Part shown: positions 1 to 24,860 of the stretch, piece by piece
Numbering within the stretch: position 1 is the stretch's first letter
Layout: each line of letters starts with the position of its first letter
Source of the DNA: a virus
Virus record (IMG/VR): IMGVR_UViG_3300020204_004581
Reading direction: 5' to 3' (one strand)
DNA: 64,000 nt
Position numbers and translations under genes: made by a program
Notes under the pieces: model-generated
Told to the model about the DNA's origin: nothing
Database searches by the model: none
What the model saw: the letters and a program-made list of their open reading frames with translations, nothing else

Positions 1-3000
1 TGATGATCCTGAGCTACCTGATGTTCCTGAGGAACCACTTGTGCCACTAGATCCTGAAGATCCACTTGTGCCGCTAGATCCTGAAGATCCACTTGTGCCG
101 CTAGATCCTGAACTACCATCAGTTCCTGATGAACCCGAAGAGCCTGAGCTACCATCAGTTCCTGATGATCCTGAGCTACCGCTTGTTCCTGATGAACCCG
201 ATGAGCCAGATGTACCTGAGCTACCACTTGTTCCTGATGAACCAGATGTTCCTGAGGTTCCGCTAGAGCCTGATGTTCCAGATGAACCAACACAAACTCC
301 TTGATATGTAATTGAAAAACCTACGAGGTCTGGACCGGAAACTGTTCCAACTATCGCACAAATTTCTTGTGTTGTACCGTTTGCGATAGAAGCACTAACT
401 GATGTTCCTGAACAATCAGTATACGTGTAATTTTGGGAAACTCCAGTTGTATTCGAAATTAAAAAACTACCACATGTTTGTCCACTAGTTCCTGATGTGC
501 CAGATGTTCCTGAGCTACCACTTGAACCACTTGTTCCTGAGCTTCCGCTAGAACCAGATGTTCCTGATGAGCCAGATGTTCCTGAAGAACCTGAGCTACC
601 ACTTGTACCTGAAGAACCTGAGCTACCACTAGTTCCTGAAGAACCAGATGTCCCTGAAGAACCATTTGTTCCTGATGTTCCATCTGTACCATTACTACCG
701 CTTGTTCCTGAAGAACCACTTGTACCTGAGCTTCCTGATGTCCCACTTGAACCGTCTGTACCATTACTACCTGAAGTACCAGAAGTTCCTGAAGATCCGC
801 TTGTACCACTTGATCCTGAAGTACCATCTGTACCGTTGGAGCCTGACGTACCTGAGGATCCACTTGTACCACTTGATCCTGAAGTACCATCTGTACCATT
901 ACTACCACTTGTTCCTGACGTTCCCGATGAACCAGAAGTTCCTGAAGAACCTGATGTTCCATCTGTACCATTACTTCCACTTGTTCCTGATGTACCAGAT
1001 GAGCCAGAAGTTCCGCTCGAACCACTTGTACCATCTGTACCGTTGCTTCCTGAAGTACCAGAAGTTCCTGAAGATCCACTTGTTCCGCTAGATCCTGAAG
1101 TGCCATCTGTACCGTTGCTTCCTGAAGTACCAGAAGTTCCTGAAGATCCACTTGTTCCGCTAGATCCTGAAGTGCCATCTGTACCATTACTTCCTGATGT
1201 ACCAGATGAACCAGAAGTTCCGCTCGAACCACTTGTTCCATCCGTACCATTACTTCCTGAAGTGCCTGATGTACCAGATGAACCAGATGTTCCTGAGGAA
1301 CCACTTGTTCCGTCTGTACCGTTACTACCACTTGTTCCTGATGTGCCAGATGATCCAGAAGTTCCTGAAGAACCTGAGGTACCATCTGTACCATTAGATC
1401 CTGAAGTTCCTGATGTTCCACTTGAACCAGATGTTCCTGAAGAACCACTTGTTCCGTCTGTACCGTTACTTCCACTTGTTCCTGATGTTCCACTCGAGCC
1501 AGATGTTCCTGAAGAACCAGATGTCCCTGAAGAACCATTTGTTCCTGATGTTCCATCTGTACCATTACTACCACTTGTTCCGGAAGATCCACTTGTACCG
1601 CTAGATCCTGAAGTTCCTGAAGAACCTGATGTTCCATCTGTACCATTACTTCCGCTTGTTCCTGATGTACCTGATGAGCCAGAGGTTCCTGAAGAACCTG
1701 ATGTTCCATCTGTACCATTACTTCCGCTTGTTCCTGATGTACCTGATGAGCCAGAGGTTCCTGAAGAACCGCTTGTTCCATCCGTACCATTACTACCACT
1801 TGTTCCTGATGTGCCAGATGATCCTGATGTACCTGAGCTACCATCAGTTCCTGACGAGCCTGAACTACCTGAAGTGCCTGAACTACCTGAAGTACCATCA
1901 GTTCCTGATGTACCTGAGCTACCACTTGTTCCTGATGAGCCAGAAGTTCCTGAGGAACCTGAGCTTCCACTTGTTCCTGATGAACCAGAAGTTCCTGAAG
2001 AACCTGAGCTACCGCTTGTTCCAGATGAACCTGAGCTTCCTGAGGAACCACTTGTTCCACTCGAGCCTGATGTTCCAGAACTTCCAGCATCGGCTACTAA
2101 ATTCCAATCAGCTCCTCCTGCTGGTATTTCGTTTTGATTATCATTTATAGCAATGTATGAGCTTCCACTATAATATACAACATCATTCCTTGAGTAAAAT
2201 GTACCCATGGAGAACTCTCCCTCCCATGCGAAACTTGTTCCTGAAGAACCACTTGTTCCACTAGATCCTGAAGATCCACTCGTACCGCTAGAGCCTGAGC
2301 TACCTGAAGTACCTGAGCTACCATCAGTTCCTGATGAGCCTGATGAGCCTGATGTTCCTGAACTACCATCAGTTCCTGATGTGCCTGAGCTACCATCAGT
2401 TCCTGATGTTCCTGAAGAACCACTTGTCCCACTAGATCCTGATGTACCTGATGAGCCTGAGCTACCATCAGTTCCTGATGAGCCTGATGAGCCTGATGTT
2501 CCTGAACTACCATCAGTTCCTGATGTGCCTGAGCTACCATCAGTTCCTGATGTTCCTGAAGAACCACTTGTTCCACTAGATCCTGATGTACCATTAACAC
2601 CACTTAAACCTGATGTTCCTGATGTACCTGAGCTACCATCAGTTCCTGACGAGCCTGAACTACCTGAAGTACCTGAACTACCTGAAGTACCATCAGTTCC
2701 TGATGTACCTGATGAGCCAGAAGTTCCTGAAGAACCGCTTGTTCCATCCGTACCATTACTACCACTTGTTCCTGATGTGCCAGATGATCCTGATGTGCCT
2801 GAGCTACCATCAGTTCCTGACGAGCCTGAACTACCTGAAGTACCTGAACTACCTGAAGTACCATCAGTTCCTGATGTACCTGATGAGCCAGAAGTTCCTG
2901 AAGAACCGCTTGTTCCATCCGTACCATTACTACCACTTGTTCCTGATGTGCCAGATGATCCTGATGTGCCTGAGCTACCATCAGTTCCTGATGAGCCTGA

Positions 3001-5823
3001 TGAGCCTGATGTTCCTGAACTACCATCAGTTCCTGATGTGCCTGAGCTACCATCAGTTCCTGATGTTCCTGATGATCCACTTGTTCCACTAGATCCTGAT
3101 GTACCTGATGAACCTGATGTTCCTGAGCTACCATCAGTTCCTGATGAGCCTGATGAGCCTGATGTTCCTGAACTACCATCAGTTCCTGATGTGCCTGAAC
3201 TACCATCAGTTCCTGATGTTCCTGAAGAACCACTTGTTCCACTAGATCCTGAAGATCCACTCGTACCGCTAGAGCCTGAGCTACCTGAAGTGCCTGAGCT
3301 ACCATCAGTTCCTGATGAGCCTGATGAGCCTGATGTTCCTGAACTACCATCAGTTCCTGATGTGCCTGAGCTACCATCAGTTCCTGATGTGCCTGAAGAA
3401 CCACTTGTTCCACTAGATCCTGAAGATCCACTCGTACCGCTAGAGCCTGAGCTACCTGAAGTGCCTGAGCTACCATCAGTTCCTGAAGTACCTGAGCTAC
3501 CATCAGTTCCTGATGTACCTGAGCTACCTGAAGTACCTGAGCTACCATCAGTTCCTGATGTTCCTGAAGAACCACTTGTTCCACTAGATCCTGATGTACC
3601 TGATGAACCTGATGTTCCTGAGCTACCATCAGTTCCTGATGAGCCTGATGAGCCTGAACTACCATCAGTTCCTGATGTGCCTGAGCTACCATCAGTTCCT
3701 GATGTTCCTGAAGAACCACTTGTTCCACTAGATCCTGAAGATCCACTTGTGCCGCTAGATCCTGAACTACCATCAGTTCCTGATGAACCCGAAGAGCCTG
3801 AGCTACCATCAGTTCCTGATGAACCCGAAGAGCCTGAGCTACCATCAGTTCCTGATGATCCTGAGCTACCATCAGTTCCTGATGTTCCTGAAGAACCACT
3901 TGTTCCACTAGATCCTGAAGATCCACTTGTGCCGCTAGATCCTGAACTACCATCAGTTCCTGATGAACCCGAAGAGCCTGAGCTACCATCAGTTCCTGAT
4001 GAACCCGAAGAGCCTGAGCTACCATCAGTTCCTGATGATCCTGAGCTACCTGAAGTACCTGAGCTACCATCAGTTCCTGATGTTCCTGAGCTACCATCAG
4101 TTCCTGATGAGCCTGATGAGCCTGATGTTCCTGAACTACCTGAAGTACCAGAAGAACCATTTTGATTTACTATGTTAATAGTACCAATCATACCCGCATG
4201 ATTAGCACATTGATATACTATACTGCTTGGAGCATCCGCTGGAACTCTATAAATTATTAAAACACTAGTGTTAGCTTTTCCATTTACAGGATCGTTGTTG
4301 GTTGTACCCGGCACAGCTGATGTATCACCTGATGATAATCTTAAAGCAAACGGATGACTTGTTGAAACAGCACTTACATTAAAGTAATACAACTGTCCCC
4401 TTACTATAGTAAGAGTCGGAAAGTTACCAGCATATCCACTAATAGTATAATTTGAACCTGCACTAGTTACTGTAAATAATTGACCGCCTTCAATACCACT
4501 TGTTCCACTAGATCCTGAAGATCCACTCGTACCGCTAGAGCCTGAGCTACCTGAGCTACCTGAGCTACCTGAGCTACCTGAGCTACCATCAGTTCCTGAT
4601 GAGCCTGAGCTACCATCAGTTCCTGATGTTCCTGAAGAACCACTTGTTCCACTAGATCCTGATGTACCTGATGAACCTGATGTTCCTGAACTACCATCAG
4701 TTCCTGATGAACCCGAAGAGCCTGAGCTACCATCAGTTCCTGATGAACCCGAAGAGCCTGAGCTACCATCAGTTCCTGATGTTCCTGAAGAACCACTTGT
4801 TCCACTAGATCCTGATGTACCTGATGAACCTGATGTTCCTGAACTACCATCAGTTCCTGATGAACCCGAAGAGCCTGAGCTACCATCAGTTCCTGATGAA
4901 CCCGAAGAGCCTGAGCTACCATCAGTTCCTGATGTTCCTGAAGAACCACTTGTTCCACTAGATCCTGATGTACCTGATGAACCTGATGTTCCTGAACTAC
5001 CATCAGTTCCTGATGAACCCGAAGAGCCTGAAGTACCATTAACCCCACTTATACCTGAAGTTCCACTTGTTCCTGATGAACCTGAGCTACCACTTGTTCC
5101 TGAATTGATCCCTGTCACCTGTACGGAGGTTCCATCACTATTATTCAAAGTAAGTGTAGATGTCCCACTATTGTAAGTTCCTCCGGTTACTGTGCCTGTA
5201 AACCCTGTAATTGAAACTGATGTTCCATCATTATCTGATAAAACTAAAGTTGTAGTCGCAGAAAAATATGTACCACCTGTAATTACGGTGTCGTTCATAT
5301 TTGCAATTCTCCAACGTGCATTTGCTCTAGTAACCCCACCAACACCTTCAATTGTAGATCCTGTCCATACATTTACGAAATTTTGACCTGCAACTGTATT
5401 TGTATAACACTGATATCCCGTTTCTGAGTCTCCAACCAATGAACCCGAAGCTTCCGCAGCATCCCACAATGCGGCGTAGTTGTCTATCTCATATTGATAC
5501 GTCGTCTCAGCAGAGATGACGTATACCATCATACCTAAACGTCTTCTACCACAAGAAATCTCGTCGGTTTCTATGGTCACTGCGTTTGGTGAAGAAAGCG
5601 GTGTTCCATATGTGAAATTAATTGGTATTGTATTTCCTGAATACAAAATTGTACCTGAACTACCATCAGGAATCGTAAATTCGAGGTCCTGATGAGAAAA
5701 AACTTCCATGTAGCCTCCAATGGAGTACACGCTGAAGTTGGTACCTGTATTGTTATCTAACGTGACGGTATCTGCGCCTTGTAAGATAACTGCTGAAGTG
5801 GGATTTCGATACTCAAAGCTCAT
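1..5823 (-). CDS. Giant Gly-X-Y (GSS/GTS/GTD/GSN) repeat fibre-like protein with embedded cupredoxin, CBM5/12-like and 4-Cys domains; >1941 aa, C-terminus beyond the left edge
   Basis: Not in the ORF track because it has no stop in the window. ATG at 5823 (AATAAAAATG) gives MSFEYRNPTSAVILQGADTVT... I translated the three domain insertions (286-480, 2083-2235, 4165-4490) by hand and found no in-frame stop. The Gly-every-third register is still in this frame at position 1. Confidence 0.9.
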   Translation of the reverse strand, partial: MSFEYRNPTSAVILQGADTVTLDNNTGTNFSVYSIGGYMEVFSHQDLEFTIPDGSSGTILYSGNTIPINFTYGTPLSSPNAVTIETDEISCGRRRLGMMVYVISAETTYQYEIDNYAALWDAAEASGSLVGDSETGYQCYTNTVAGQNFVNVWTGSTIEGVGGVTRANARWRIANMNDTVITGGTYFSATTTLVLSDNDGTSVSITGFTGTVTGGTYNSGTSTLTLNNSDGTSVQVTGINSGTSGSSGSSGTSGTSGISGVNGTSGSSGSSGTDGSSGTSGSSGTSGSSGTSGSSGTSGTDGSSGSSGSSGTDGSSGSSGSSGTDGSSGTSGSSGTSGSSGTSGSSGTSGTDGSSGSSGSSGTDGSSGSSGSSGTDGSSGTSGSSGTSGSSGTSGSSGTSGTDGSSGSSGTDGSSGSSGSSGSSGSSGSSGTSGSSGSSGTSGIEGGQLFTVTSAGSNYTISGYAGNFPTLTIVRGQLYYFNVSAVSTSHPFALRLSSGDTSAVPGTTNNDPVNGKANTSVLIIYRVPADAPSSIVYQCANHAGMIGTINIVNQNGSSGTSGSSGTSGSSGSSGTDGSSGTSGTDGSSGTSGSSGSSGTDGSSGSSGSSGTDGSSGSSGSSGTDGSSGSSGTSGSSGSSGTSGSSGTSGTDGSSGSSGTDGSSGSSGSSGTDGSSGSSGSSGTDGSSGSSGTSGSSGSSGTSGSSGTSGTDGSSGTSGTDGSSGSSGSSGTDGSSGTSGSSGTSGSSGTSGSSGTSGTDGSSGTSGSSGTSGTDGSSGTSGTDGSSGTSGSSGSSGTSGSSGSSGTSGSSGTSGTDGSSGTSGTDGSSGTSGSSGSSGTDGSSGTSGSSGSSGTSGSSGSSGTSGSSGTSGTDGSSGTSGTDGSSGTSGSSGSSGTDGSSGTSGSSGTSGSSGTSGSSGTSGTDGSSGTSGTDGSSGTSGSSGSSGTDGSSGTSGSSGTSGTSGSNGTDGTSGSSGTSGSSGTSGTDGTSGSSGTSGSSGSSGTDGSSGTSGSSGTSGTSGSNGTDGTSGSSGTSGSSGTSGTDGTSGSSGTSGSSGSSGTDGSSGTSGTSGLSGVNGTSGSSGTSGSSGTSGTDGSSGTSGTDGSSGTSGSSGSSGTDGSSGSSGTSGSSGTSGSSGTSGTDGSSGTSGTDGSSGTSGSSGSSGTDGSSGTSGSSGSSGTSGSSGSSGTSGSSGTSFAWEGEFSMGTFYSRNDVVYYSGSSYIAINDNQNEIPAGGADWNLVADAGSSGTSGSSGTSGSSGSSGSSGTSGSSGSSGTSGSSGTSGSSGSSGTSGSSGTSGSSGTSGTDGTSGSSGTSGSSGSSGTDGSSGTSGSSGTSGTSGSNGTDGTSGSSGTSGSSGTSGTSGSNGTDGTSGSSGTSGSSGTSGTSGSNGTDGTSGSSGTSGSSGTSGSSGTSGSNGTDGTSGTNGSSGTSGSSGTSGSSGTSGTSGSNGTDGTSGSSGTSGSSGTSGTSGSNGTDGTSGSSGTSGSSGTSGTSGSNGTDGTSGSSGTSGSSGTSGTSGSNGTDGTSGSSGTSGSSGTSGSNGTDGTSGSSGTSGSSGTSGTSGSNGTDGTSGSSGTSGSSGTSGTSGSNGTDGTSGSSGTSGSSGTSGTSGSNGTDGTSGSSGTSGSSGTSGTSGSNGTDGTSGSSGTSGSSGTSGSNGTDGTSGSSGTSGSSGTSGTSGSNGTDGSSGTSGSSGTSGSSGTSGSNGTDGTSGTNGSSGTSGSSGTSGSSGSSGTSGSSGSSGTSGSSGTSGSSGSSGTSGSSGSSGTSGTSGTSGQTCGSFLISNTTGVSQNYTYTDCSGTSVSASIANGTTQEICAIVGTVSGPDLVGFSITYQGVCVGSSGTSGSSGTSGTSGSSGTSGSSGTSGSSGSSGTSGSSGSSGTDGSSGSSGSSGTDGSSGSSGTSGSSGSSGTSGSSGSSGTSGSSGTSGSSGSS
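2083..2235 (-). other. CBM5/12 (ChtBD3)-like carbohydrate-binding domain within the repeat protein
   Basis: FAWEGEFSMGTFYSRNDVVYYSGSSYIAINDNQNEIPAGGADWNLVA fits the W..Y..D-V-V-x-Y-x-G-x-x-Y-x-A...P...W pattern. Confidence 0.65.
4165..4490 (-). other. Cupredoxin (type-1 blue copper)-like domain within the repeat protein
   Basis: QLFTVTSAGSNYTISGYAGNFPTLTIVRGQLYYFNVSAVSTSHPFALRLSSGDTSAVPGTTNNDPVNGKANTSVLIIYRVPADAPSSIVYQCANHAGMIGTINIV. It has an upstream His (HPF) and a C-x2-H-x2-M loop. Confidence 0.75.
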
Positions 5824-5841: not shown

Positions 5842-7461
5842 TTATATTAATGTATTACCTTTAAAGTAAATATCGTTAGTTGCGCCATTAAATCTAAATG
5901 TTGCATTTGTATATGTTGTGTATACTCTATACACACCCACAGGGATTGTTGAACCTGTATTTGTTACAGTTAGATTATAGATGGCTGCGGTCATATTGGC
6001 TGTTGTTAGTGTGTTAGGATCTGACGCATTGTTGAATCCAATCTGCGAGATTCTTTGGCCGTTTGTTGATCCTGTTGGAATAATGAACGTATACCAAGCA
6101 TTTCCAGGTACTGTAGCCGCAGAGACTTGGATTGTTTTAAATAAGTAAGCATTGATAACGTTCCCATAATCGTCTGTTCCGCCTCCAGTTGGTTGAGAGT
6201 ATGCTGTTTGTATGCTAGGAAAACTTCCACCCCAACCTGAGAATGATATGTAGTTATTCATTTGTGTATTAAAGGTTGCTTGAACTGTAGAAAGAGCAAG
6301 ACCGTTCGCGAAACCACGGAATAAACCAGGTGATGATTGAGATAACATCCATGAATTTATTTCTACGTTACCACTTACTGGTTCAATGAATAGGTAGTTG
6401 GGTAAAGCAGCATTAGTTGGTGTTGGAGTATTAGTTGGTGTTGGAGATTCTGTATTGGTAGGTGTTTGTGTTGTTGTTGGAGTATTAGTTTGAGTTGGAG
6501 TATTAGTTGGTGTTTCGGTATTGGAAGGTGTTGGAGTATTAGTTGGTGTTTCGGTATTGGTAGGTGTTTGTGTTGTTGTTGGAGTATTAGTTAGAGTTGG
6601 GGTTGGAGTTGGTGTTTCGGTATTGCTAGGTGTTGGAGTATTAGTTGGTGTTTCGGTATTGGTAGGTGTTTGTGTTGGTGTTTCGGTATTGCTAGGTGTT
6701 GGAGTATTAGTTGGTGTTTCGGTATTGGTAGGTGTTTGTGTTGGTGTTTCTGTATTGCTAGGTGTTGGAGTATTAGTTGGTGTTTCAGATGGTGTCTGAG
6801 TTGGCGTTGTTGTGGTAGTTGGTGTCTGAGTCGGTGTTTCAGTTGGCGTAGCGGTTAAGGTTGTTGTTGGAGATGGAGTTTGTGTAGAGGTAGCTGCTGG
6901 AGTTCCTGTTGGGGTGTTACTCGGTGTTACCGATGGTGTTTCAGTGGGTGTCTGAGTCGTTGTTTGTGTTGGTGTATTTGTTGGCGTCTCACTCGGTGTT
7001 GCGGAAAGTGTGGTTGTTGGAGTAGGTGTTGTAGTCGGTGTTTGAGTAGTGGTAGCGCTTGGTGTATTTGTTGGTGTCTCACTTGGTGTTGTAGTCGGTG
7101 ATGGTGAGGGTGTCGGAGTTTCAGTCGTACTTGGTGTTGGTGTTGGGCTAGTACCAACTGTAGCAGTTGGAGATGGAGTTAAAGTGGGTGTCGGAGTTGG
7201 TGTAGGTGTGGGTGTTACACATTCGAAAGTAATAATAACACCGTTGAACATATCTGTTCTCGTCTGAGCTGAGTAAGCTAAAGTTGCTCCTGTGAGACCT
7301 ATGGGAAAAGAAGAATAATATACATCAAATGGACCTAAAGCATTAGAACTCGAAGCAAGTCGTACTATGTAACTTGTACAACCTGTTACCGTAACTTGTT
7401 GTTCTATGGAATTATCACAGTCTGGGGCATTATTGACAACGAATATCGAGTAAAGACTCAT
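5842..7461 (-). CDS. Putative virion protein with a long Thr/Pro (mucin-like) linker between a small Cys-containing N-domain and a beta-rich C-domain
   Basis: About 270 aa of TPTPTNT-type repeats. A TATTTAT motif lies upstream. Confidence 0.8.
6608..6788. repeat. 66-bp tandem repeat (~2.7 copies) encoding [22 protein letters not shown]
   Basis: gttggtgtttc(g/t)gtattgctagg recurs at 6608, 6674 and 6740. Confidence 0.8.
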
Positions 7462-7545
7462 CCAAGATTTTTTTTATAAATACCCTTTTCCACTAATTTA
7501 TCATTGATATTATTACAATTATTTTTGTTAAGCCATCATCACCTT

Positions 7546-7929
7546 TCAACTTGACTCGGATAAACTCAGTGTGGATACACAGGAAGCTTCAACGGTCGAT
7601 AGTCCACCTACCTCACATGATGAAGTGCTTATTGTAATATCGGTGACACAAGAAACTGTATGTATGGTAATTAGAAACGAACATCCAAATCTGCACTCTA
7701 ACAATTGGATTCTCTCACAGCCGTTCGCATCAAGCATTTTGAGAAGTATAGCGGGGGCGGTCGCAAATACTGTTGAGAGTGTCACACCTGTCTCGGGAGG
7801 TATGGGATTACCTGAGGTAATTGTATAAATTAAAGTTTCATAATTACCATAAATGTCTGATACATACACATTTATTGGGTATGTACCTCCAGTAACCGAT
7901 GTGATTTCTACTCTTGTCATGACAAACAC
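7546..7929 (-). CDS. Small Cys-rich hypothetical protein (SprB-like half repeat)
   Basis: Contains TGGTYPINVY and DANGC motifs, similar to the adjacent SprB-repeat protein. Confidence 0.6.
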   Translation of the reverse strand: MFVMTRVEITSVTGGTYPINVYVSDIYGNYETLIYTITSGNPIPPETGVTLSTVFATAPAILLKMLDANGCERIQLLECRFGCSFLITIHTVSCVTDITISTSSCEVGGLSTVEASCVSTLSLSESS

Positions 7930-10112
7930 CTAATATCGTATAATATAATTAGTTCAACTATAACTTCTTCGCAATTTAAAGAACCCTCGGATCTATCGGT
8001 TTCGATTGTAATTTCGCTTGTAAGTTCATTTACTGTCACTTGTCCGATTCCAGGAATTGTTTCAAGTAAAGATTGAACTGTATTATACCATAATGAATCA
8101 GGTGGAGCGTCCACCAAACTTGTAGACACATAAAAATCTTGATCTAATTCGATTCCTTCGGGTTCTAATTCTACTTTTGCAATAAATGTGGCTGACACAA
8201 GTTGGCAGTTTGTTCTTCCTGTGGTTAATTCGTCAAATCCAGTATTCATGATTTGACCCAAACCTTTTTTTGTTCCCGATACATATGAGAATGTTTGTTC
8301 TCCGACCAAGTAAGTTCTGTAAGACACGTAACTCTTGTTACAGTCTATAATTGCATTTCTTGTTTGACTACATCCCCCTGAATCTATGACTGTAACAGAA
8401 TAAGTTCCTGCTGTTAAACCTGTGGCGGTTATAGACTGAGGATTACCCGATACATTATCTGACCACTCGAATTCGAATGGAGGTACTCCCTCAGATATAA
8501 ACGTTGTAATTAAACCATCTGACCCTTGTCCACAAGATGTAGAATATAGGTTGTATATCAAGGGCACACTACCGTTAACAAAAACTTGTTGAACCTGTGT
8601 GCATCCATCTGTATCTGTAATAGTAATTTGGTGTTGTCCTGATGAGACATTGGTAAATGTTACCGCACTAGCAGTTGTATCAATTATATTTTGAACTCCA
8701 TCTAAAGAATAGTCAAATGGAGATGTTCCTCCTGAAGATTTTTCCACTAAAATAATTCCAGTATTTCCTCCACATGTAGTCCCTGTAGTGGTTGCGGTAA
8801 AAGTGAAGATATTGTCAGACAGTATTGTACTTTCCTCTAAAAAGTAACACCCACTTGAATCCTCGAGAATTATAGAGTATGTTCCTCCTGATAAATCGTT
8901 AAATGTTTGTGATGCGGCGTTAGTTGTTATCGTTTCAGTTGATGAGTCAGGGTAAATCAATGTATATGTAAACGGTGAGGTGCCCCCTATAGCCGTAATT
9001 AGTATTGATCCGTCAGCATTACTACATGAGCTTTGTTCAATAGTAAGAATTATATCCGATATACCATTCTCTGTTGCCAAATCGATACCCGTACTGAATT
9101 TACATAGTGCTGCGTCCGTAACTAAAAAGTTATAAGATCCAGCAGGCACTCCACTCAGGGTAAATGACTGTGAATAAGATACATCAATTTGTCCCGTTGA
9201 GGCTGAATAATAGTATGGTCCTGTTCCACCGGTTATTGTCATGGTTATTACACCATCTGTGTTCAAGCAAGTTGGGATATTGTCGACGACAAAACTTCCG
9301 AGACCTACGGGATCGACTTGTCCAATTGACTGTTCTTTGATTTTAGAACATCCTGATGAATCTGTTACTTTTACAGAGTAAGTTCCCGCAGTGAGACCTG
9401 ATATTGTGCTTCCTGTGGATCCATCGTTCCAAATATAGCTCCATGGTTGTACACCTGTTTGTCCTGTGATAATCAATTTTCCTGAAGGTTGTCCACATTG
9501 GGTGTCGGGTATAATATAAAAACCAAAATCAACCTCGACTGATGGATTTATAACAAAGGTTTGTGTCTTACCTGTACATCCACCATAATCCACAGCTGCA
9601 ATATAGTAAGTTCCGGCAGAGAGATATTGGAAAGTTATCACTTCTAAGTCTGTTGTTGCAGATTGCAATAATTCTCCTTCAAACGTGTATAAAAAGAAAG
9701 AAGTCTCAGAGTAATCAGATGAATCTTCAGCCGAAACTGTACCATTATTCAGACTACAGGTTGTTGCCGAGACATCGATTATTGTTGCGCAGTTACCCGA
9801 TGATACTGGTACGTTGACAGTGAACTCTAAGTTGACAGGAACGGTAGAATCATTTACTCTGAAGGGGTATGTTGCTGCGGATAGATTATTAACTTGTGAG
9901 AACGTAAGTTTTGGCGAAAGTGGGTCAATGTAGTCGTAGTCATACGCTAAATAATCTATTGCCATAATACCCTCTATACTACCAGCATTACTTGGGTAAT
10001 ACCAAGTAACCGTATACGGTGGTGTTCCACCCGAGAAACCGGCCTCTATGGAACCTGAAGAATTGTTTTGACAATCACCAGTGACAAATAGTATGTAATT
10101 AAAATCAGCCAC
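7917..10112 (-). CDS. SprB-repeat protein (putative virion adhesin/decoration)
   Basis: About seven repeats of C..xGxI....GGTxPY/FxYxW...L.AGTYxVxVxDxxGC, the signature of the Flavobacterium gliding-adhesin SprB repeat. Confidence 0.75.
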   Translation of the reverse strand: MADFNYILFVTGDCQNNSSGSIEAGFSGGTPPYTVTWYYPSNAGSIEGIMAIDYLAYDYDYIDPLSPKLTFSQVNNLSAATYPFRVNDSTVPVNLEFTVNVPVSSGNCATIIDVSATTCSLNNGTVSAEDSSDYSETSFFLYTFEGELLQSATTDLEVITFQYLSAGTYYIAAVDYGGCTGKTQTFVINPSVEVDFGFYIIPDTQCGQPSGKLIITGQTGVQPWSYIWNDGSTGSTISGLTAGTYSVKVTDSSGCSKIKEQSIGQVDPVGLGSFVVDNIPTCLNTDGVITMTITGGTGPYYYSASTGQIDVSYSQSFTLSGVPAGSYNFLVTDAALCKFSTGIDLATENGISDIILTIEQSSCSNADGSILITAIGGTSPFTYTLIYPDSSTETITTNAASQTFNDLSGGTYSIILEDSSGCYFLEESTILSDNIFTFTATTTGTTCGGNTGIILVEKSSGGTSPFDYSLDGVQNIIDTTASAVTFTNVSSGQHQITITDTDGCTQVQQVFVNGSVPLIYNLYSTSCGQGSDGLITTFISEGVPPFEFEWSDNVSGNPQSITATGLTAGTYSVTVIDSGGCSQTRNAIIDCNKSYVSYRTYLVGEQTFSYVSGTKKGLGQIMNTGFDELTTGRTNCQLVSATFIAKVELEPEGIELDQDFYVSTSLVDAPPDSLWYNTVQSLLETIPGIGQVTVNELTSEITIETDRSEGSLNCEEVIVELIILYDIRCLS

Positions 10113-13104
10113 GTAAACAATTTATTGATATGTTTATTCCAACATTCAGTTGGAGTTTTGTCTGTAAGTTTTTTGGTATACAATCCATGTTTGTGACGTT
10201 CAGTGTGTTTCCATTCAAAAAGTAATTCAATCCGTACTGATATAAATTGTCCAAGTTATCCGCTAAACTATTTTTCCAAAGGCTGTTAGTCGGTACGTCA
10301 TTTAATCCCTCCCCCTGATAGAAAGTGGATTTAATTATTTGTTCATTACCTAACTTCAGGTCGACAAACCATGTTGTTGAAAGTGTATTAGTTATACAAT
10401 CATTAAGTGTTAGTCCTTCCTCAGTCAAATAATTCTGTAAGGCTTGTAGTAATACTCCTTGGAAATTAGATACAGTGGTATTTCCGTTCAACCAAGGAAA
10501 AACTTTGAATTCAACAAACTCAGTTGAACAGTCGTAGTTGAACATTGAACCTATAATATAACAGGCTTCAGCAGGTACGGGTATAAATTGACATCCTCTT
10601 TGTCTTCTGTAGACGAATTTCTGTTTTTGGAAAATAGAATTCTCGAATCTTGTACCTGAATTCCATATCGTTGTTGCTGGAATCATTTGTTCAACCAATT
10701 TTATCCAATATGGACCAAGACCATCAACATAATCTATTAATTTCTGATAAGTGTAGTTGTTGTTTGGTATACCAATTGTATTTTCTTGTTCAAGATACTT
10801 CCAAAATATTGATGATAGAGTTGGATACCCGCCAGTGTGACCATCAGTGATGTACATTCTATTTCTAACATTGATTGTATTTTGCCAGAAAGTTTGTGCG
10901 AACTCGAAGAAGGTTTTTTTCTTTGGTTGTGGGTTTATAAATGTCCAATCGACACCTCCTGGCGTAGGAAATGGAGTTGTCATTCCTGTCTCAGGTATTG
11001 GGTAATCATACAATCTTGATTGATTCCACACATCATATACTAACCCTTGTCCAGGATTTAGAAAAAGATCAACATTTTTTACGTTTAGCACCAATTTCTC
11101 TTTGTCGATGTAGTAAAATGCTTCATATCCACCTTCTGTTGATATTCTAAGGTCTTCATCATCTGTCAACCAAGATTTTTTGTTATCAATAGTTTTTCGA
11201 AGTTTGAACCCTTCAGTCATGTATGGAAAATCTCTGTATCTTTCCAAATAAATCTGTCCATAAGTAAATGGTTCAAGTTGGGTTTGAAATGTTGGATTCG
11301 TACCTGTGAATACATTTGTCTCTACAGGGATCTCAGGACTCCTATGTTGTGGTGTGGACTCATACCAACCAGCACCTACTTGGAAAAAATAGTCTTGTGT
11401 AGGAAGGGGCGCGTATGGAAAACCCTCTGTATCCATAGGAAAATCATCAAGTCCCAAATTCACTTGTTCAAAAATTGTTGTTGAGGTGAATGCACTGTAA
11501 GTTTCTCCTTGAAACTTGTAAGTCACCGTTGAGGATAATGTTGGCACATTATCTACATATGTACCTCCTGAAATCTTTGCATATTGAACTGCAAATTGAT
11601 CAAGATTTATTCTTTGGTCGGCAACATATATGTTTTCATTAAATTCTATCAAAGCGTCAGGTGCTCCCACTAATCTTAACAGAAACTCAACGGATCTTCT
11701 TGTACCTTTTGATTTGAAAAGATATCCGGAATTTAAAATTAGATTTCTATAAAATTGATAGTTCAATTCTGTTGGTGTAAGAGCTCTTGCGTAACCTGGA
11801 TAGACGGGCGCGTTGGTTTGTCCAAATACTGAGTCTAAAAAGTTTTCGTTGGTAATTGGTGATATATTAGGTTCCCACCCTAATGTCGCGGCCAAATTTT
11901 TTAGTAGTAGTGATGGTATGTCATTTTGGATCGTATAGTTAACCGAGGTCATGTTTGCCATGCCGTCAATAAACTTTTTAACTTCATCAAAACTTCTACC
12001 ATATATCTGAAGAATTTTTTCAACCTTTCTATCCTTGGTATCGAACTCTTTGAAAGAATCTTGTATCAAGAAACGGGAAATCAGATTTGTTTTATATGAA
12101 TCTAACTCCTCTGAAACGAAAAATAATTGTCTGAGATATTCATCAAATGAATTTGTTATAATGTCTAAATTCCATGTGCCTTGTAATGGCCAAGTGATTG
12201 ATGTAAAATTATTATAAAACTGACCGTTTTCATCCTCGCTCGGAACTTGAAAAACCGCTGTATATGGTGGTTGAATATATCTATTTAACAGGAATTTTTC
12301 TACCTCATCAAAAGATTCAGCAAACACCTCATCAACTACTAAGTCGTTTGGTCTTATATGGTAATTAGTTGTATAAGTTGTGGCTGTCGTCCCGAATGGT
12401 GATCCTGAAACATAAAATACCAAAGTACCTGATGCTAAACTTACTGATGGTTCAAACGATAATACCTTGAAAATATCATAAGGATTATCTGTGTTACCTG
12501 AGTTTGCAATTGCAATACAATAATCCAAGTAAGTACTATTCAAATTCCTAAGTGGAGAGGTAACTATCTCTCGAGCAACAATATTTGTTGCTGCAGAAAT
12601 AGAATAATCAATGGAAAATGGATTTGCTAGTCTATCAACATCAACTGAGAATATAGTCTCATCATTGACACCATCATATACAATATTATAGGCTGTCAAT
12701 CCAGTAATTGATTGTTCATTCATGAACCTGACGTCCAATGCGGCGGGAAATTTATTAATTATTTTTGTCACCGATACTTGAAGTCTCTTGGATAACGATC
12801 CATACATTGAGAAATTCGAAACCTCAGTTAAATCTAAGTTTGGATAAACTCTGAATTCTTTAGCAAATATCAATCTGCTTTCATCCAAACTCTCTATCTC
12901 CAAATCTTCTAAGCTAATGGGTGAGGAAAATGCTCCAATGTTAAATTCTCTCGTAACTTTTTCAACAACACTTGTTGTGAACTCGAAGTTACCTTGCGTA
13001 AGCCCGCCACCTTCAACAGTTTGTAAACCTACAATGTTGTCAAAGGGAGTTGCAGAACCACTACCTGGCCTTGGTGGATAAAAATATTTTTCTCGTTGTG
13101 GCAT
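10105..13104 (-). CDS. Baseplate wedge-associated protein (gpI/gp7-like domain)
   Basis: LLKNLAATLGW...YLFKSKGTRRSVEFLLRLVG is typical of P2 gpI/T4 gp7-like wedge subunits; baseplate context. Confidence 0.55.
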   Translation of the reverse strand: MPQREKYFYPPRPGSGSATPFDNIVGLQTVEGGGLTQGNFEFTTSVVEKVTREFNIGAFSSPISLEDLEIESLDESRLIFAKEFRVYPNLDLTEVSNFSMYGSLSKRLQVSVTKIINKFPAALDVRFMNEQSITGLTAYNIVYDGVNDETIFSVDVDRLANPFSIDYSISAATNIVAREIVTSPLRNLNSTYLDYCIAIANSGNTDNPYDIFKVLSFEPSVSLASGTLVFYVSGSPFGTTATTYTTNYHIRPNDLVVDEVFAESFDEVEKFLLNRYIQPPYTAVFQVPSEDENGQFYNNFTSITWPLQGTWNLDIITNSFDEYLRQLFFVSEELDSYKTNLISRFLIQDSFKEFDTKDRKVEKILQIYGRSFDEVKKFIDGMANMTSVNYTIQNDIPSLLLKNLAATLGWEPNISPITNENFLDSVFGQTNAPVYPGYARALTPTELNYQFYRNLILNSGYLFKSKGTRRSVEFLLRLVGAPDALIEFNENIYVADQRINLDQFAVQYAKISGGTYVDNVPTLSSTVTYKFQGETYSAFTSTTIFEQVNLGLDDFPMDTEGFPYAPLPTQDYFFQVGAGWYESTPQHRSPEIPVETNVFTGTNPTFQTQLEPFTYGQIYLERYRDFPYMTEGFKLRKTIDNKKSWLTDDEDLRISTEGGYEAFYYIDKEKLVLNVKNVDLFLNPGQGLVYDVWNQSRLYDYPIPETGMTTPFPTPGGVDWTFINPQPKKKTFFEFAQTFWQNTINVRNRMYITDGHTGGYPTLSSIFWKYLEQENTIGIPNNNYTYQKLIDYVDGLGPYWIKLVEQMIPATTIWNSGTRFENSIFQKQKFVYRRQRGCQFIPVPAEACYIIGSMFNYDCSTEFVEFKVFPWLNGNTTVSNFQGVLLQALQNYLTEEGLTLNDCITNTLSTTWFVDLKLGNEQIIKSTFYQGEGLNDVPTNSLWKNSLADNLDNLYQYGLNYFLNGNTLNVTNMDCIPKNLQTKLQLNVGINISINCLRG

Positions 13105-14009
13105 TAACTAATAATCGTGTTGAAGTTTTTACTGAAATCTATATTATCACCCCTATTTTGTCTAACTTCATATAGAAGATCATTGAACTGGTCTCTGATT
13201 TCAAACAAGTTGTATTGTCTGTAGATATTATTGTTAAAGTCATAGATTGTGTAAATTCCATCATCCATAGATTTAGTCTGATTTCCGTAAAGCGCGATTG
13301 CTAGCGTTGACACGTCATATTCAACCATTTCAATATCAATTGTTACAGGATTGAAAAAGGTGTTTGTTAAAACGATGTCTTGATCGGGTTGTCCGATATA
13401 TGGTGTTGCGTTTGGTTTGTTTGTTGGTGATGATGAAGGTGATAGGGTTAGGAACATTAAGTTTGCCGTACTATCAGTGTATCTGTATCTTATTGATTTT
13501 TGTTGGGTATTTACCTGATTTGTGACGACTGGCTCACAAAAGAAATTAGATGTAACAACTCTAAAGAAATTAGGTATTTTTGTACCATCACTATTCAGAT
13601 ATTCTATTCTAAATCCAACAAGACCTTGAGGAACAAATTTATTTCTATATTCCTGAGGTATCAAATTAAGGTCTAATACAAGTCCTTTTACGTTTGGTAA
13701 TGCGCTTAGAACGCCACAATCCACAATTACAGTTCTTATTTGTGCAGGTCTAATCAAAAGTGTGTAAATCCCAAGAGCATTGAATTCTGTCGCTGGAAGG
13801 GTTAAGTTGTATAATCCACCCAAGATTTCTACAGGGGACCCTCCGATTTGTTGATTGCTGAAATAAGGACGTAATAGAGTTTTAGCATCGAGTTTTTTCA
13901 AAACGAAATTGTTTGTTACGTCTCTTGAGGGAGTATAATTCAAAATTATCTCCATGTCATCTGGTGAACAGTCAGCTGGTCTTATTGTCCCGTATGAAGC
14001 TATTGCCAT
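13104..14009 (-). CDS. Hypothetical protein, probably structural
   Basis: 301-aa ORF, TAATG-coupled to the downstream gene, with an upstream TATTTAT motif. Confidence 0.6.
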   Translation of the reverse strand: MAIASYGTIRPADCSPDDMEIILNYTPSRDVTNNFVLKKLDAKTLLRPYFSNQQIGGSPVEILGGLYNLTLPATEFNALGIYTLLIRPAQIRTVIVDCGVLSALPNVKGLVLDLNLIPQEYRNKFVPQGLVGFRIEYLNSDGTKIPNFFRVVTSNFFCEPVVTNQVNTQQKSIRYRYTDSTANLMFLTLSPSSSPTNKPNATPYIGQPDQDIVLTNTFFNPVTIDIEMVEYDVSTLAIALYGNQTKSMDDGIYTIYDFNNNIYRQYNLFEIRDQFNDLLYEVRQNRGDNIDFSKNFNTIIS

Positions 14010-14044
14010 TTCTTTGTTTTATTTTCTATAAATAGTTTATCTGT

Positions 14045-15121
14045 TTATTTGGTTTCAACGTTGAAAAACTTGTAACCATAATTGATTAAGTCTCCCAAGT
14101 TATCTACCTCTCCAAGTCTTTGTATTTGTTCGTAAGCGGAGTTCTTTCCCCTTTCTATGTAGATATTAGTAACAATCTCCGCATCTCCCACAGCCTTCTG
14201 TAATGCAGGATTCTTGAAAAAGAATTGTGCTGTTAGTTCATTTTCAGTGAATCCTGAACTTTGGACGAAGAATTTAGTTTCTCCATTGGCAAAGTCGTAG
14301 TAATCCACATTGTGTATTGTGTATGCTGTAAATAATGGGGACCTATTATTTATAACTCCGAATATACCTCCGTCTTTAATTACGGGTGCCCCAACGATAA
14401 ATTTCTGAGGACCATATTGAGCAAGCTCTTGTATTCTCGAATTTGTTACACCCGAGACCGTATATGGTACAGTTGTAAACGTTGAAGATACTTGATCCTG
14501 TATGTTGTTTTCAGCATCACCTGAAAAAATGAAATTGTAACTTACAGGTGTAAAGGTCCAACTTCCTGTGTTTGATACAAAAAATGCGGTTCCGTTTGGA
14601 TTGATAATTGTTGCTATTCTATATGGGGTAACTACTTCCTTTTTAACAATATTTGTACCCCAAGGATTATTTTGAGTCAAAGTAATTGTATAAGCACTCA
14701 CAACCGTGGGGTATTGATGAGATATTGATGCGGGGGTGAGTTGATTGAAACTATTTGGGGATGATCCATCTCCCCAATCAATTGTATAGGTTGATAACTC
14801 AATAAACTTTTTGAACTCGTCTGATGTGTTGTAAACATTATAAATGTATGGGTTAGATGTCGTGGATGAAAAGATGAAATTTGTTACAACATCTTTTTGG
14901 TGCACAGCACCATCAAAAGGTGAGTAGTATCCACAATCTACAACATTTTCAGTTATAAGTATGGGTATTGTTAATCCAGTCAAAAGTGAAGATCCACCTG
15001 GTCCCGAACTAAGAACCTGTGTCATTGCTGAATAAACTCCCACAGGGCTGCCTGATACGTTGACCGTGAACAGATCTCCACTGATAACTTCGGGTGATAT
15101 AATGTAATTGTAATCGGGCAT
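14045..15121 (-). CDS. PKD/Ig-like domain protein, probably structural
   Basis: YTIDWGDGS...SHQY....YTITLT PKD signature. Confidence 0.6.
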   Translation of the reverse strand: MPDYNYIISPEVISGDLFTVNVSGSPVGVYSAMTQVLSSGPGGSSLLTGLTIPILITENVVDCGYYSPFDGAVHQKDVVTNFIFSSTTSNPYIYNVYNTSDEFKKFIELSTYTIDWGDGSSPNSFNQLTPASISHQYPTVVSAYTITLTQNNPWGTNIVKKEVVTPYRIATIINPNGTAFFVSNTGSWTFTPVSYNFIFSGDAENNIQDQVSSTFTTVPYTVSGVTNSRIQELAQYGPQKFIVGAPVIKDGGIFGVINNRSPLFTAYTIHNVDYYDFANGETKFFVQSSGFTENELTAQFFFKNPALQKAVGDAEIVTNIYIERGKNSAYEQIQRLGEVDNLGDLINYGYKFFNVETK

Positions 15122-22926: not shown

Positions 22927-23016
22927 TAATTGACTTTTTTCATAAATAGTTTAACACCCATTTTCTAAGGAAAGGGCGTACAATCTAATAATAGTTGACT
23001 CGGGGTGATAATAAAC

Positions 23017-24855: not shown

Positions 24856-24860
24856 TTATT

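What the first reader, a model, noticed from the sequence alone, without database searches (positions are those of the whole stretch)
1..5823. Hidden >1941-aa beads-on-a-string fibre: Pro-free Gly-Ser/Thr-X scaffold carrying three different globular domains
Seen: the true gene is absent from the ORF track. It has a ~240-aa N-terminal region, then roughly 1470 residues of Gly-X-Y triplets made almost entirely of S, T, D and N. In N-to-C order the triplets are interrupted by a cupredoxin-like, a CBM5/12-like and a 4-Cys domain. Established: collagen-like helices normally rely on Pro or charged pairs for stability, and Gly-X-X repeats can instead form polyglycine-II bundles, as in the snow-flea antifreeze protein and T-even gp38 adhesins. 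Inference: this is a very long virion filament (~400 nm if a triple helix at ~0.29 nm per residue) or a PGII bundle with a regular hydroxyl surface that may be glycosylated or bind ice or minerals. It would display sensing and binding modules along its length.
Basis: partly seen in the sequence, partly recalled or inferred. Interest (0 to 1): 0.85.

Follow-up and report, generated by a model that had tools for sequence, protein, structure and literature searches.

The report
Giant proline-free collagen-like phage fibre
A lake-water jumbo phage encodes a huge virion fibre whose shaft is about 1,500 residues of proline-free Gly-Ser/Thr-Ser triplets carrying three small globular "beads"; it belongs to a widespread, undescribed phage family and breaks the usual rules for collagen stability.

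Summary
Window 1-5823 (minus strand) is one stop-free 1,941-codon frame that runs off the window edge. It has a 241-aa N-domain and four Gly-X-Y arrays: 494 triplets, Gly 494/494, no Pro, no Lys/Arg. Three inserts interrupt the arrays: a cupredoxin fold with a conserved His/Cys/His/Met set, a weak CBM5/12-like domain, and a recurrent 4-Cys module.

It is the last gene of the baseplate operon of an uncultured T4-like jumbo phage. About 50 related viral contigs share the N-domain and the synteny. Most of them break inside the array, including two near-complete ~300-kb genomes. Complete relatives reach 3,744 and 3,260 aa; array-less orthologues also exist, so the array is a variable spacer. Some relatives end in endosialidase-type trimer chaperone domains or continue into classical Pro-rich collagen. 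A trimer model of the N-domain passes its controls.

In two relatives examined, a TibC/Aah-type O-heptosyltransferase abuts the gene's 3' end. The best reading is a homotrimeric, probably O-glycosylated, collagen-type virion fibre. A PGII or antifreeze bundle is unlikely.

Triple helix, glycosylation, copper binding and true length are all untested. This scan has already met the same fibre-plus-TibC pairing on other DNA.

The parts
5101..5823 (-). N-terminal conserved domain (aa 1-241). It is the family-defining anchor. Its last ~70 aa (aa 174-241, window 5101-5304) are two ~30-aa beta-hairpin repeats that form the modelled trimer interface.
   Evidence: 50 viral loci share it at 48-89% identity and 33 database proteins share it. 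Monomer model: core pLDDT 70-90. Trimer model: ipSAE 0.69 against control 0.00, interface at residues 174-248. No Pfam or PHROG family matches.
4480..5100 (-). GXY array 1 (aa 242-448, 69 triplets), proline-free G-[ST]-[SDN].
   Evidence: Pfam Collagen PF01391, E=3e-32, 110.6 bits. Holds a 278-bp exact internal DNA repeat.
4159..4479 (-). Insert 1 (aa 449-555): cupredoxin-fold module with H490, C539, H542 and M545 (loop C-x2-H-x2-M).
   Evidence: AF2 pLDDT 97.8. All top Foldseek PDB matches are cupredoxins, prob ~1, TM 0.45-0.60, E ~1e-3. Each ligand is ~88% conserved over 204 homologous segments. 2,582 representative clusters match. phrog_677, E=1.9e-21. It is the C-terminal part of gp9 in 274 cyanophage records.
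2233..4158 (-). GXY array 2 (aa 556-1197, 214 triplets).
   Evidence: Higher-order DNA periods of 153-180 bp with up to 96-99% matches.
2086..2232 (-). Insert 2 (aa 1198-1246, 49 aa): CBM5/12-like module (W...Y...D-V-V-Y-Y-x-G-x-x-Y...P...W).
   Evidence: Pfam PF02839, E=0.0035, 17.8 bits, below the 26.2 cut-off. No PDB sequence match. No NCBIfam match. The assignment is tentative.
475..2085 (-). GXY array 3 (aa 1247-1783, 179 triplets). It is the most diverged at DNA level.
   Evidence: 152 distinct 27-mers of 177 encode only 22 distinct 9-aa peptides. Gly 179/179.
289..474 (-). Insert 3 (aa 1784-1845, 62 aa): 4-Cys module. Its first Cys follows directly on one array; its last Cys lies one residue before the next.
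   Evidence: Seven copies aligned from the window, L032, L050 and L095, with the four Cys conserved. One copy in the 3,260-aa L095 protein is 80% identical. No Pfam or PHROG family matches.
1..288 (-). GXY array 4 (aa 1846-1941, 32 triplets). It runs off the window; the C-terminal part of the protein is missing here.
   Evidence: The DNA beyond base 1 could not be fetched.
5842..25322 (-). Upstream genes on the same strand: gp25-like (24861-25322), gp6-like baseplate wedge (23017-24855), 1763-aa, 580-, 262-, 358-, 301-, 999-aa proteins, SprB-repeat protein (7917-10112), 127-aa protein, and a Thr/Pro-rich 539-aa protein (5842-7461). The fibre ATG lies 18 nt after the last stop.
   Evidence: PHROG and Pfam hits. 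The seven genes nearest the fibre are colinear upstream of it in 49 of 50 relatives.

Best explanation
This is the 5' 5.8 kb of a giant homotrimeric virion fibre gene. It is the last gene of the baseplate-distal operon of an uncultured freshwater T4-like jumbo myovirus (relatives are ~295-317 kb).

The conserved 241-aa N-domain anchors the fibre to the particle and starts trimerisation through intertwined beta-hairpin repeats. The proline-free, lysine/arginine-free G-[ST]-[S/D/N] arrays are a length-variable spacer. They most likely form a parallel collagen-type triple helix, held in register by trimeric nodes: the N-domain, the inserted modules, and a C-terminal head or S74 chaperone domain in relatives. 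The arrays are probably stabilised by dense O-glycosylation of Ser/Thr by a phage TibC/Aah-type glycosyltransferase.

The three inserts would each appear as a three-copy bead along the shaft, giving extra contact points. The fibre would then act as a long (~0.4 um or more) capture line for first, reversible contact with the host surface.

Shown: the gene, its anatomy, selection on the triplet pattern, family, synteny, the cupredoxin fold and ligand conservation, and GT linkage in relatives. Inferred: virion location, trimer, triple helix (~0.55), glycosylation (~0.6), copper binding (~0.4), and the capture function.
For: Gene reality and selection: a stop-free 1,941-codon frame, Gly 494/494, and synonymous diversity behind a fixed peptide pattern.

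Structural-operon context: gp25, gp6 and tail sheath lie on the same strand. The same seven-gene block lies upstream in 49/50 relatives.

Family: 45 of 50 loci that share the N-domain continue into Pro-free arrays. Family-wide there are 10,538 triplets with 0 Pro and 30 K+R.

Complete members: G006 3,744 aa, L095 3,260 aa, L004 1,530 aa and L019 1,656 aa.

Spacer role: the array-less orthologue L049 (466 aa) shares both the N-domain and the C-terminal head with L019 (E=3e-17).

Trimer and triple helix: Pfam Collagen 110.6 bits. Peptidase_S74 trimer-chaperone domains close two fibres that carry the same Pro-free arrays: P0036 (7e-17), the far-end piece of G002's N-domain gene (assuming the two contig ends join), and P0037 (1.3e-11), whose N-terminus is different. 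The P0037 tail also gives many PHROG tail-fibre hits. In G002 the Pro-free array runs on in the same chain into classical GPQ-type collagen. Homotrimer model of residues 37-300: median ipSAE 0.69, best of 3 controls 0.00. That mark was reached by 20 of 30 proteins solved as pairs of one chain and by 1 of 23 solved as single chains. The runs share at least 33% of contacts and partner pLDDT is at least 74. The calibration used two copies and its own alignments, so the counts hold only roughly.

Glycosylation: a GT4+TIGR04414 (Aah/TibC) protein abuts the fibre's 3' end in G001 (218 bits) and G006 (224.5 bits; cut-off 200). Nine of 17 loci with this GT hold a long GXY array within 10 kb. Glycosylated Thr is reported to turn a random-coil (GPT)10 peptide into a triple helix, and Thr triplets are over-represented in bacterial and viral collagen-like proteins (PMC11923368).

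Virion-surface nature of insert 1: the same module ends gp9 in 274 cyanophage records.
Against: There is no direct evidence (proteomics, EM) that the protein is in virions or where it sits. The arrays lack every known sequence stabiliser of a triple helix: no Pro/Hyp, no Lys-Asp/Glu pairs, and a net charge of about -65 per chain. On my own knowledge, Gly-Ser-rich sequences are otherwise classic flexible linkers. The trimer model is confident only up to residue ~248, so the helix itself is not modelled. The Pfam Collagen match mostly reflects Gly periodicity. Slippage in 9-nt units would by itself preserve the triplet period. The TibC-type gene of this very genome lies outside the window and could not be read; it is known only from an earlier unchecked note. 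The C-terminus is missing and array lengths differ between assemblies. The N-domain has no recognisable fold match.
Confidence: 0.7

Rival explanations
1. Glycosylated, intrinsically disordered mucin-like tether. The protein is a virion fibre, trimeric only at its globular nodes. The Gly-Ser/Thr arrays are flexible random-coil or bottle-brush spacers rather than a triple helix.
For: The composition resembles engineered flexible Gly-Ser linkers (own knowledge). The arrays hold no Pro, no charge pairs and strong net negative charge. The adjacent gene 5842-7461 carries a ~300-aa Thr/Pro mucin-like linker. The triple-helical part is not confidently modelled. Array length varies freely from 0 to over 1,000 triplets.
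Against: A random coil does not need Gly at every third residue. Yet Gly holds 494/494 positions here and all 10,538 triplets family-wide keep the register inside arrays, despite extensive synonymous divergence. X and Y are limited to small polar residues. One relative joins the array to classical collagen in the same chain.
Confidence: 0.2
2. Polyglycine-II bundle, as in snow-flea antifreeze protein or the T4 gp38 adhesin. The Gly-X-X repeats fold back into stacked PGII helices with a flat hydroxyl face that binds ice, mineral or glycan.
For: Gly-X-X periodicity with small residues is compatible with PGII helices.
Against: PGII bundles need short helices joined by regular turns. These arrays run 69-214 triplets (588 in G006) with no periodic break, and Asp/Asn spacing is irregular at 1-11 triplets. 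The family's architecture is that of parallel trimeric fibres: S74 chaperone ends, continuation into Pro-rich collagen, and an N-terminal trimer model. No ice-related context was found.
Confidence: 0.04
3. Largely an assembly construct. A real but much shorter fibre gene has had its repeat arrays inflated, reordered or chimerised by short-read assembly, so the order of the 'three different beads on one string' is unreliable.
For: Exact DNA repeats up to 278 bp exceed typical read length. Nearly all related contigs end inside the array, including both ends of two near-complete genomes. L079, identical in the N-domain and cupredoxin insert, shows a different second array of more than 1,150 residues.
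Against: The frame stays open through all four arrays and three unique inserts. Array 3 is diverged enough at DNA level to assemble uniquely. Independent assemblies give complete genes of 1,530-3,744 aa with the same layout. Multi-insert layouts recur in L030, L032, L038, L050 and L095.
Confidence: 0.06

Closest known systems
Collagen-like phage tail-fibre proteins (Smith et al. 1998 'Bacteriophage collagen', cited in PMC1079782; E. coli O157:H7 prophage EPclA/B, PMC3368898; Prochlorococcus phage P-SSM2 orf028, PMC1079782)
   Same: Gly-X-Y arrays in phage fibre genes, flanked by non-collagen domains and presumed trimeric. P-SSM2 orf028 is ~49% Gly-X-Y with Pro, Ser or Thr.
   Different: No Pro and no Lys/Arg in 494 triplets here (0 Pro in 10,538 triplets family-wide). 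Arrays are several to many times longer. Folded modules are embedded inside the shaft. Relatives are linked to a TibC-type transferase. EPclA stability is attributed to Pro and ~22% charged residues (PMC11923368), and both are absent here.
BclA exosporium glycoprotein of Bacillus anthracis, and glycosylated-Thr collagens (Riftia cuticle collagen; galactosylated (GPT)10 peptides), as summarised in PMC11923368
   Same: A hydroxyl amino acid in a triplet repeat whose O-glycosylation replaces hydroxyproline as the helix stabiliser. A trimeric globular domain nucleates folding.
   Different: BclA triplets are GPT and so still contain Pro. BclA is a short filament (tens to a few hundred residues) on a spore, not a virion. 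Here both X and Y are Ser/Thr/Asp/Asn, and the candidate enzyme is a BAHT-type heptosyltransferase.
TibC-TibA and Aah-AIDA-I (bacterial autotransporter heptosyltransferases, NCBIfam TIGR04414)
   Same: A cytoplasmic enzyme that O-heptosylates many Ser residues of a long repetitive adhesin. Relatives of this fibre have a TIGR04414 protein above cut-off next to the gene.
   Different: The substrate would be a collagen-like array rather than a beta-helix passenger domain. The phage enzyme is fused to a GT4 domain. The sugar and the acceptor are unproven. This genome's own copy lies outside the window.
C-terminal module of gp9 'baseplate wedge tail fiber connector' of T4-like cyanophages (phrog_677; e.g. 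P-SSM4, S-SSM5, S-MbCM100)
   Same: A homologous ~100-aa module (39-42% identity; E=1.9e-21 to the PHROG), here shown to have a cupredoxin fold with conserved H/C/H/M.
   Different: In cyanophages it ends a baseplate protein. Here it is spliced between two collagen-like arrays. No copper binding has been reported for either (no paper found).
Snow-flea antifreeze protein and T4 gp38 PGII sandwich
   Same: Gly every third residue with small side chains.
   Different: Those are compact bundles of ~10-residue PGII helices joined by turns. Here there are hundreds of uninterrupted triplets and trimer-fibre termini.

Membership tests
Collagen triple-helix repeat proteins (Pfam PF01391; prokaryotic/viral collagen-like proteins) | Uninterrupted Gly at every third residue over long runs | tested here: met
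   494/494 triplets in four arrays of 69, 214, 179 and 32 triplets
Collagen triple-helix repeat proteins (Pfam PF01391; prokaryotic/viral collagen-like proteins) | Match to the family profile above the curated threshold | tested here: met
   PF01391 110.6 bits against a 27.2 cut-off, E=3e-32, on aa 242-448. The score mostly reflects Gly periodicity.
Collagen triple-helix repeat proteins (Pfam PF01391; prokaryotic/viral collagen-like proteins) | Sequence stabilisers of the helix: Pro/Hyp in X/Y or Lys-Asp/Glu salt-bridge triplets | tested here: not met
   0 Pro and 0 Lys/Arg in the arrays; 65 Asp unpaired. Family-wide: 0 Pro in 10,538 triplets.
Collagen triple-helix repeat proteins (Pfam PF01391; prokaryotic/viral collagen-like proteins) | Adjacent trimerisation domain that sets the register | tested here: met
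   N-domain homotrimer model: 0.69 against control 0.00. Fibres with the same arrays end in Peptidase_S74: P0036, assigned to an N-domain gene by joining G002's two contig ends, and P0037, which has a different N-terminus. The window's own C-terminus was not seen.
Collagen triple-helix repeat proteins (Pfam PF01391; prokaryotic/viral collagen-like proteins) | Physical triple helix (CD band at 220-225 nm, cooperative melt, 0.29 nm rise) | not testable with these tools
   Needs recombinant protein or EM. The GXY part of the model is low-confidence.
Phage tail fibres/spikes with a C-terminal intramolecular chaperone (Pfam PF13884 Peptidase_S74) | C-terminal S74 domain | not testable with these tools
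   The C-terminus lies beyond window base 1. The domain is present in relatives P0036 (E=7e-17) and P0037 (E=1.3e-11), but other relatives (G001, G006, L004, L019) end in other heads.
Cupredoxins (type-1 blue copper proteins) | Greek-key beta-sandwich cupredoxin fold | tested here: met
   Model pLDDT 97.8. The top-ranked Foldseek PDB rows are cupredoxins or cupredoxin domains of multicopper oxidases; a few unrelated beta-sandwich chains appear low in the list. Prob ~1, TM 0.45-0.60, E ~1e-3, so the similarity is moderate.
Cupredoxins (type-1 blue copper proteins) | His ... Cys-x(n)-His-x(n)-Met ligand set | tested here: met
   H490, C539, H542 and M545 (C-x2-H-x2-M), each conserved in 87-89% of 204 homologous segments.
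Cupredoxins (type-1 blue copper proteins) | Match to curated cupredoxin sequence profiles | tested here: not met
   No Pfam hit at E<=1 and no NCBIfam hit. Only PHROG tail families match.
Cupredoxins (type-1 blue copper proteins) | Copper binding and the ~600 nm charge-transfer band | not testable with these tools
   Needs purified protein.
CBM5/12 carbohydrate-binding modules (Pfam PF02839) | Profile match above the gathering threshold | tested here: inconclusive
   17.8 bits against a 26.2 cut-off, E=0.0035, covering profile positions 2-41 of 44. The aromatic motif is present. There is no PDB sequence match and the domain was not folded.
Polyglycine-II bundle proteins (snow-flea AFP, T4 gp38) | Short PGII helices separated by regular turns, forming a compact bundle | tested here: not met
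   No periodic interruption in arrays of up to 214 triplets (588 in G006). Asp/Asn spacing is irregular at 1-11 triplets.
Substrates of BAHT-type O-heptosyltransferases (TibA/AIDA-I-like pairing) | A TIGR04414 enzyme encoded next to the Ser-rich repetitive protein | tested here: inconclusive
   Met in relatives G001 (218 bits) and G006 (224.5 bits), cut-off 200, both abutting the fibre's 3' end. For this genome the region is outside the window and is only reported by an earlier unchecked note.

The most novel reading that the evidence does not exclude
The arrays are a new physical class of collagen. A sub-micrometre (0.4 to ~1 um) parallel triple helix contains neither imino acids nor salt bridges. 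It is made foldable and stable only by dense O-heptosylation of Ser/Thr by a phage-encoded TibC-type enzyme, and it is pinned in register by trimeric bead domains. One bead is a functional copper-binding cupredoxin displayed on a virion.
Probability: 0.25. Interest if true: 0.9.

Novelty: new variant of a known kind. Interest (0 to 1): 0.68.

Why it matters
Collagen-like phage fibres have been known since 1998. The accepted stability rules rely on Pro/Hyp or on Lys-Asp/Glu salt bridges (PMC11923368). This family has neither in more than 10,000 triplets, yet it keeps perfect Gly register under purifying selection. It is therefore a natural test of whether glycosylated Ser/Thr alone can carry a triple helix hundreds of nanometres long.

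It would also be a clear case of a bacteriophage glycosylating its own virion protein with a BAHT-type enzyme. It gives a recurrent cupredoxin-type module, also found on 274 cyanophage baseplate proteins, a testable hypothesis of copper binding.

There are two practical points. This gene is the single assembly break in otherwise complete ~300-kb phage genomes. Gene callers also mis-annotate it, so it is systematically missing from viral protein catalogues.

Tried and rejected
Recovering the window's own C-terminus and downstream genes failed. No genome is held. An exact 53-nt pattern from the 4-Cys insert found nothing in viral or metagenome contigs. Exact look-up of the neighbouring 539-aa protein gave contigs that all end inside the array.

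N-domain searches gave nothing useful. tblastn against deposited phages found no match. There is no Pfam or PHROG family. The VIA-align wide fold search matched only WD40-blade-like pieces for residues 177-268 at Z<=6.4, which is uninformative. Atlas feature search gave only viral hypotheticals at scores below 0.9 for the N-domain and nothing for the 4-Cys module.

The CBM5/12-like insert has no PDB sequence match at E<=1 and no NCBIfam match.

Pairwise BLAST gives only E=0.25 over a 10-residue Y-T-D-C motif, so this is not established.

The PGII/antifreeze reading and a chance or non-coding origin were both considered and rejected for the reasons given under rival explanations.

Literature searches for TibC + phage + collagen-like, and for cupredoxin + cyanophage gp9, found no relevant paper in the held library. 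A 2026 jumbo-phage review mentions hair-like appendages but not collagen or glycosylation.
Full report
OBSERVATION. Window 1-5823 on the minus strand is a single open frame of 1,941 codons. It starts at the ATG at 5823, 18 nt after the stop of the preceding gene, and runs off window base 1. The other five frames over the same DNA hold 22-354 stops.

A 241-aa non-repeat N-terminus is followed by four Gly-X-Y arrays of 69, 214, 179 and 32 triplets (1,482 residues). The arrays are separated by inserts of 107, 49 and 62 aa. Gly occupies position 1 in 494 of 494 triplets. X is Thr or Ser in 487. Y is Ser 404, Asp 65, Asn 22. The arrays contain no Pro, no Lys/Arg, one Glu and five hydrophobic residues.

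Recent duplication alone does not explain this regularity. In array 3, 152 of 177 27-nt windows are distinct, but they encode only 22 distinct 9-aa peptides. Ser is written with both TCN (460) and AGY (187) codons and Gly with three codons. Selection therefore maintains the amino-acid pattern, including every Gly.

Arrays 1 and 2 do contain young duplications, with exact repeats up to 278 bp and TRF periods of 153-180 bp at 96-99%. Their copy number in a short-read assembly is therefore uncertain.

CONTEXT. The window is part of a large T4-like myovirus. On the same strand lie a tail sheath (50031-53237), gp25 (24861-25322), a gp6-like baseplate wedge (23017-24855), several large unannotated proteins, a SprB-repeat protein (7917-10112) and a Thr/Pro-rich 539-aa protein. 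The fibre gene comes last. RNR, DnaB, a B-family polymerase and an SNF2 helicase are nearby. The closest deposited phages are only 25-27% identical in gp6: Flavobacterium phage immuto, Microcystis phage Mel-JY01 and a 484-kb uncultured phage. No host can be assigned.

THE FAMILY. The N-domain retrieves 50 true relatives in IMG/VR at 48-89% identity. In 45 of them it is followed by Pro-free G-[ST]-[STDN] arrays, and almost every contig ends inside the array.

Two near-complete genomes, G001 (317,259 bp, CheckV 100%) and G002 (294,914 bp, 98%), begin and end inside such an array on the same strand. This gene is therefore their only assembly gap.

The seven genes upstream of the fibre are colinear in 49 of 50 relatives. 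Across 52 family proteins there are 10,538 triplets with 0 Pro, 30 Lys+Arg and 1,670 Asp+Glu.

Complete genes exist:
- G006: 3,744 aa, with a 275-aa N-domain, three 83-aa two-Cys inserts, one uninterrupted run of 588 triplets and a 181-aa C-terminal head.
- L004: 1,530 aa. L019: 1,656 aa.
- L095: a 3,260-aa protein with a different N-terminus but the same arrays, four 4-Cys modules (one 80% identical to the window's) and other inserts.

Array-less orthologues also exist. L049 (466 aa) shares both the N-domain and the C-terminal head with L019 (E=3e-17), and L034 is 294 aa. Thirty-three database proteins carry the N-domain on non-collagen shafts.

The array is thus a variable spacer, from 0 to more than 1,000 triplets, between a conserved anchor and exchangeable heads. 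This is the usual logic of phage fibres.

A near-identical population variant (L079) has the same N-domain and cupredoxin insert but a different second array of more than 1,150 residues. The public gene caller placed opposite-strand ORFs on it.

TRIMER AND HELIX. Several lines point to a parallel homotrimer:
1. P0037 (L095) and P0036 (the far-end piece of G002's fibre gene) end in Peptidase_S74 intramolecular-chaperone domains (E=1.3e-11 and 7e-17), a hallmark of trimeric fibres and spikes. P0037's C-terminus also gives many PHROG tail-fibre hits.
2. In G002 the Pro-free array continues, after a short interruption, into classical GPQ/GAQ-type collagen in the same polypeptide.
3. The arrays score 110.6 bits on Pfam Collagen.
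4. A three-copy model of residues 37-300 gave a median ipSAE of 0.69 against 0.00 for the best of three controls. That mark was reached by 20 of 30 proteins solved as pairs of one chain and by 1 of 23 solved as single chains. The runs share at least 33% of contacts and pLDDT is at least 74. The calibration used two copies and its own alignments, so these counts hold only roughly. The confident interface is residues ~174-248, meaning the two beta-hairpin repeats and the first two triplets.

The helix itself is not confidently modelled. The arrays lack every known sequence stabiliser. I therefore put the triple helix at about 0.55, a disordered glyco-tether at about 0.2-0.3, and a PGII bundle at under 0.05. 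The PGII case is weak because there are no periodic turns and Asp/Asn spacing is irregular.

GLYCOSYLATION. In G001 and G006 the gene that converges on the fibre's stop codon encodes a GT4 domain fused to an Aah/TibC-type O-heptosyltransferase (TIGR04414, 218 and 224.5 bits, cut-off 200). G006 has a second, sub-threshold TibC-like gene (186.8 bits), and G001 has an FkbM methyltransferase.

Of 17 viral loci with this GT, 9 carry a long GXY array within 10 kb, and most of the rest are short contigs. G002 has the same GT ~10 kb away. Directly downstream of its fibre it also has 2OG-Fe(II) oxygenases and GT2 genes.

PMC11923368 records three relevant points. Thr-containing triplets are over-represented in bacterial and viral collagen-like proteins. 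BclA Thr is glycosylated. (GPT)10 becomes triple-helical only when galactosylated.

For this genome the transferase lies beyond the window. Earlier unchecked notes of this scan place a TibC-type gene and a heptose pathway there, and I could not read that DNA.

THE BEADS. Insert 1 (aa 449-555) folds with pLDDT 97.8, and the top-ranked PDB matches are cupredoxins or cupredoxin domains: nitrite reductase, rusticyanin, AcoP, plastocyanin, amicyanin and laccases. Probability is ~1, TM is 0.45-0.60 and E is ~1e-3. Its H490 / C539-x2-H542-x2-M545 set has amicyanin-like spacing (own knowledge). Each position is conserved in 87-89% of 204 homologous segments. The module occurs in 2,582 representative clusters, often in 2-8 copies per protein. 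It forms the C-terminal part of gp9 in 274 deposited T4-like cyanophages. No curated cupredoxin profile recognises it, and copper binding is untested.

Insert 2 is CBM5/12-like only at sub-threshold level.

Insert 3 is a recurrent 4-Cys module. Its first Cys follows directly on one array and its last lies one residue before the next. This position suggests, by analogy with collagen cystine knots (own knowledge), inter-chain stapling after release from the reducing cytoplasm. That is an inference.

COMPARISON AND NOVELTY. Collagen-like phage fibres are known (Smith et al. 1998; PMC3368898; PMC1079782). What differs here is:
- the total absence of Pro and basic residues;
- the extreme length;
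- folded modules spliced into the shaft;
- the linkage to BAHT-type transferases.

I found no paper describing this, though the library is limited. The same fibre-plus-TibC pairing has already been reported by this scan on at least eight other genomes, so the kind is recurrent. This locus adds the three-bead architecture, the cupredoxin result and the array-less orthologues. I class it as a new variant of a known kind.

VERDICT. The best reading is a homotrimeric, probably glycosylated, collagen-type virion fibre of a freshwater jumbo phage (confidence 0.7). Its true length, helix state, sugar, copper binding and attachment site all remain to be measured.

Noticed in passing
window 5842-7461 (-): A 539-aa protein immediately upstream of the fibre has a ~300-aa Thr/Pro/Ser mucin-like linker between two small globular ends. 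It is another likely O-glycosylation target. Homologues sit in the same position in 46 of 50 relatives.
   Followed up: partly
window 7917-10112 (-): A 731-aa structural-operon protein with SprB repeats (PF13573, E=4.8e-17), the repeat of the Flavobacterium gliding adhesin. It is conserved in 49 of 50 relatives.
   Followed up: partly
window 57503-59038 (+): A phage-encoded 511-aa protein whose N-terminal ~226 aa are a complete Fe/Mn superoxide dismutase (Sod_Fe_N 1.9e-22, Sod_Fe_C 2.3e-40). It has an unannotated C-terminal extension.
   Followed up: no
L094 (G002 278000-294914), ORFs 9688-13982 (-) and fibre end 14950-16914 (-): In this relative the Pro-free array switches to Pro-rich classical collagen and ends in an S74 domain. 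Directly downstream lie two 2OG-Fe(II) oxygenases (one fused to a GT2), a DUF6445 protein and a GT2. This may be a phage collagen hydroxylation/glycosylation cassette, reminiscent of mimivirus L230.
   Followed up: partly
G001 contig, 255,698-261,157 (-): Three further collagen-like open frames (607, 631 and 1,024 aa) lie elsewhere in the same 317-kb phage genome.
   Followed up: no
L079 11639-16787; G001 and G002 contig ends: The public gene caller split the fibre gene into opposite-strand 'PxxPxx' ORFs. Two near-complete ~300-kb genomes have their only break inside this gene. The family is therefore systematically truncated or mis-called in catalogues.
   Followed up: yes
window 33577-40581 (-) and 40894-45771 (-): Two giant proteins (2,334 and 1,625 aa) between the tail sheath and the replication genes have no Pfam or PHROG match.
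   Followed up: no
L034 10001-10885 and L049 10001-11401: Array-less orthologues of the fibre (294 and 466 aa) sit in the same operon position. L049 has a separate 337-triplet GXY gene ~7 kb downstream.
   Followed up: partly
Pairwise BLAST supports only a 10-residue motif (E=0.25).
   Followed up: partly
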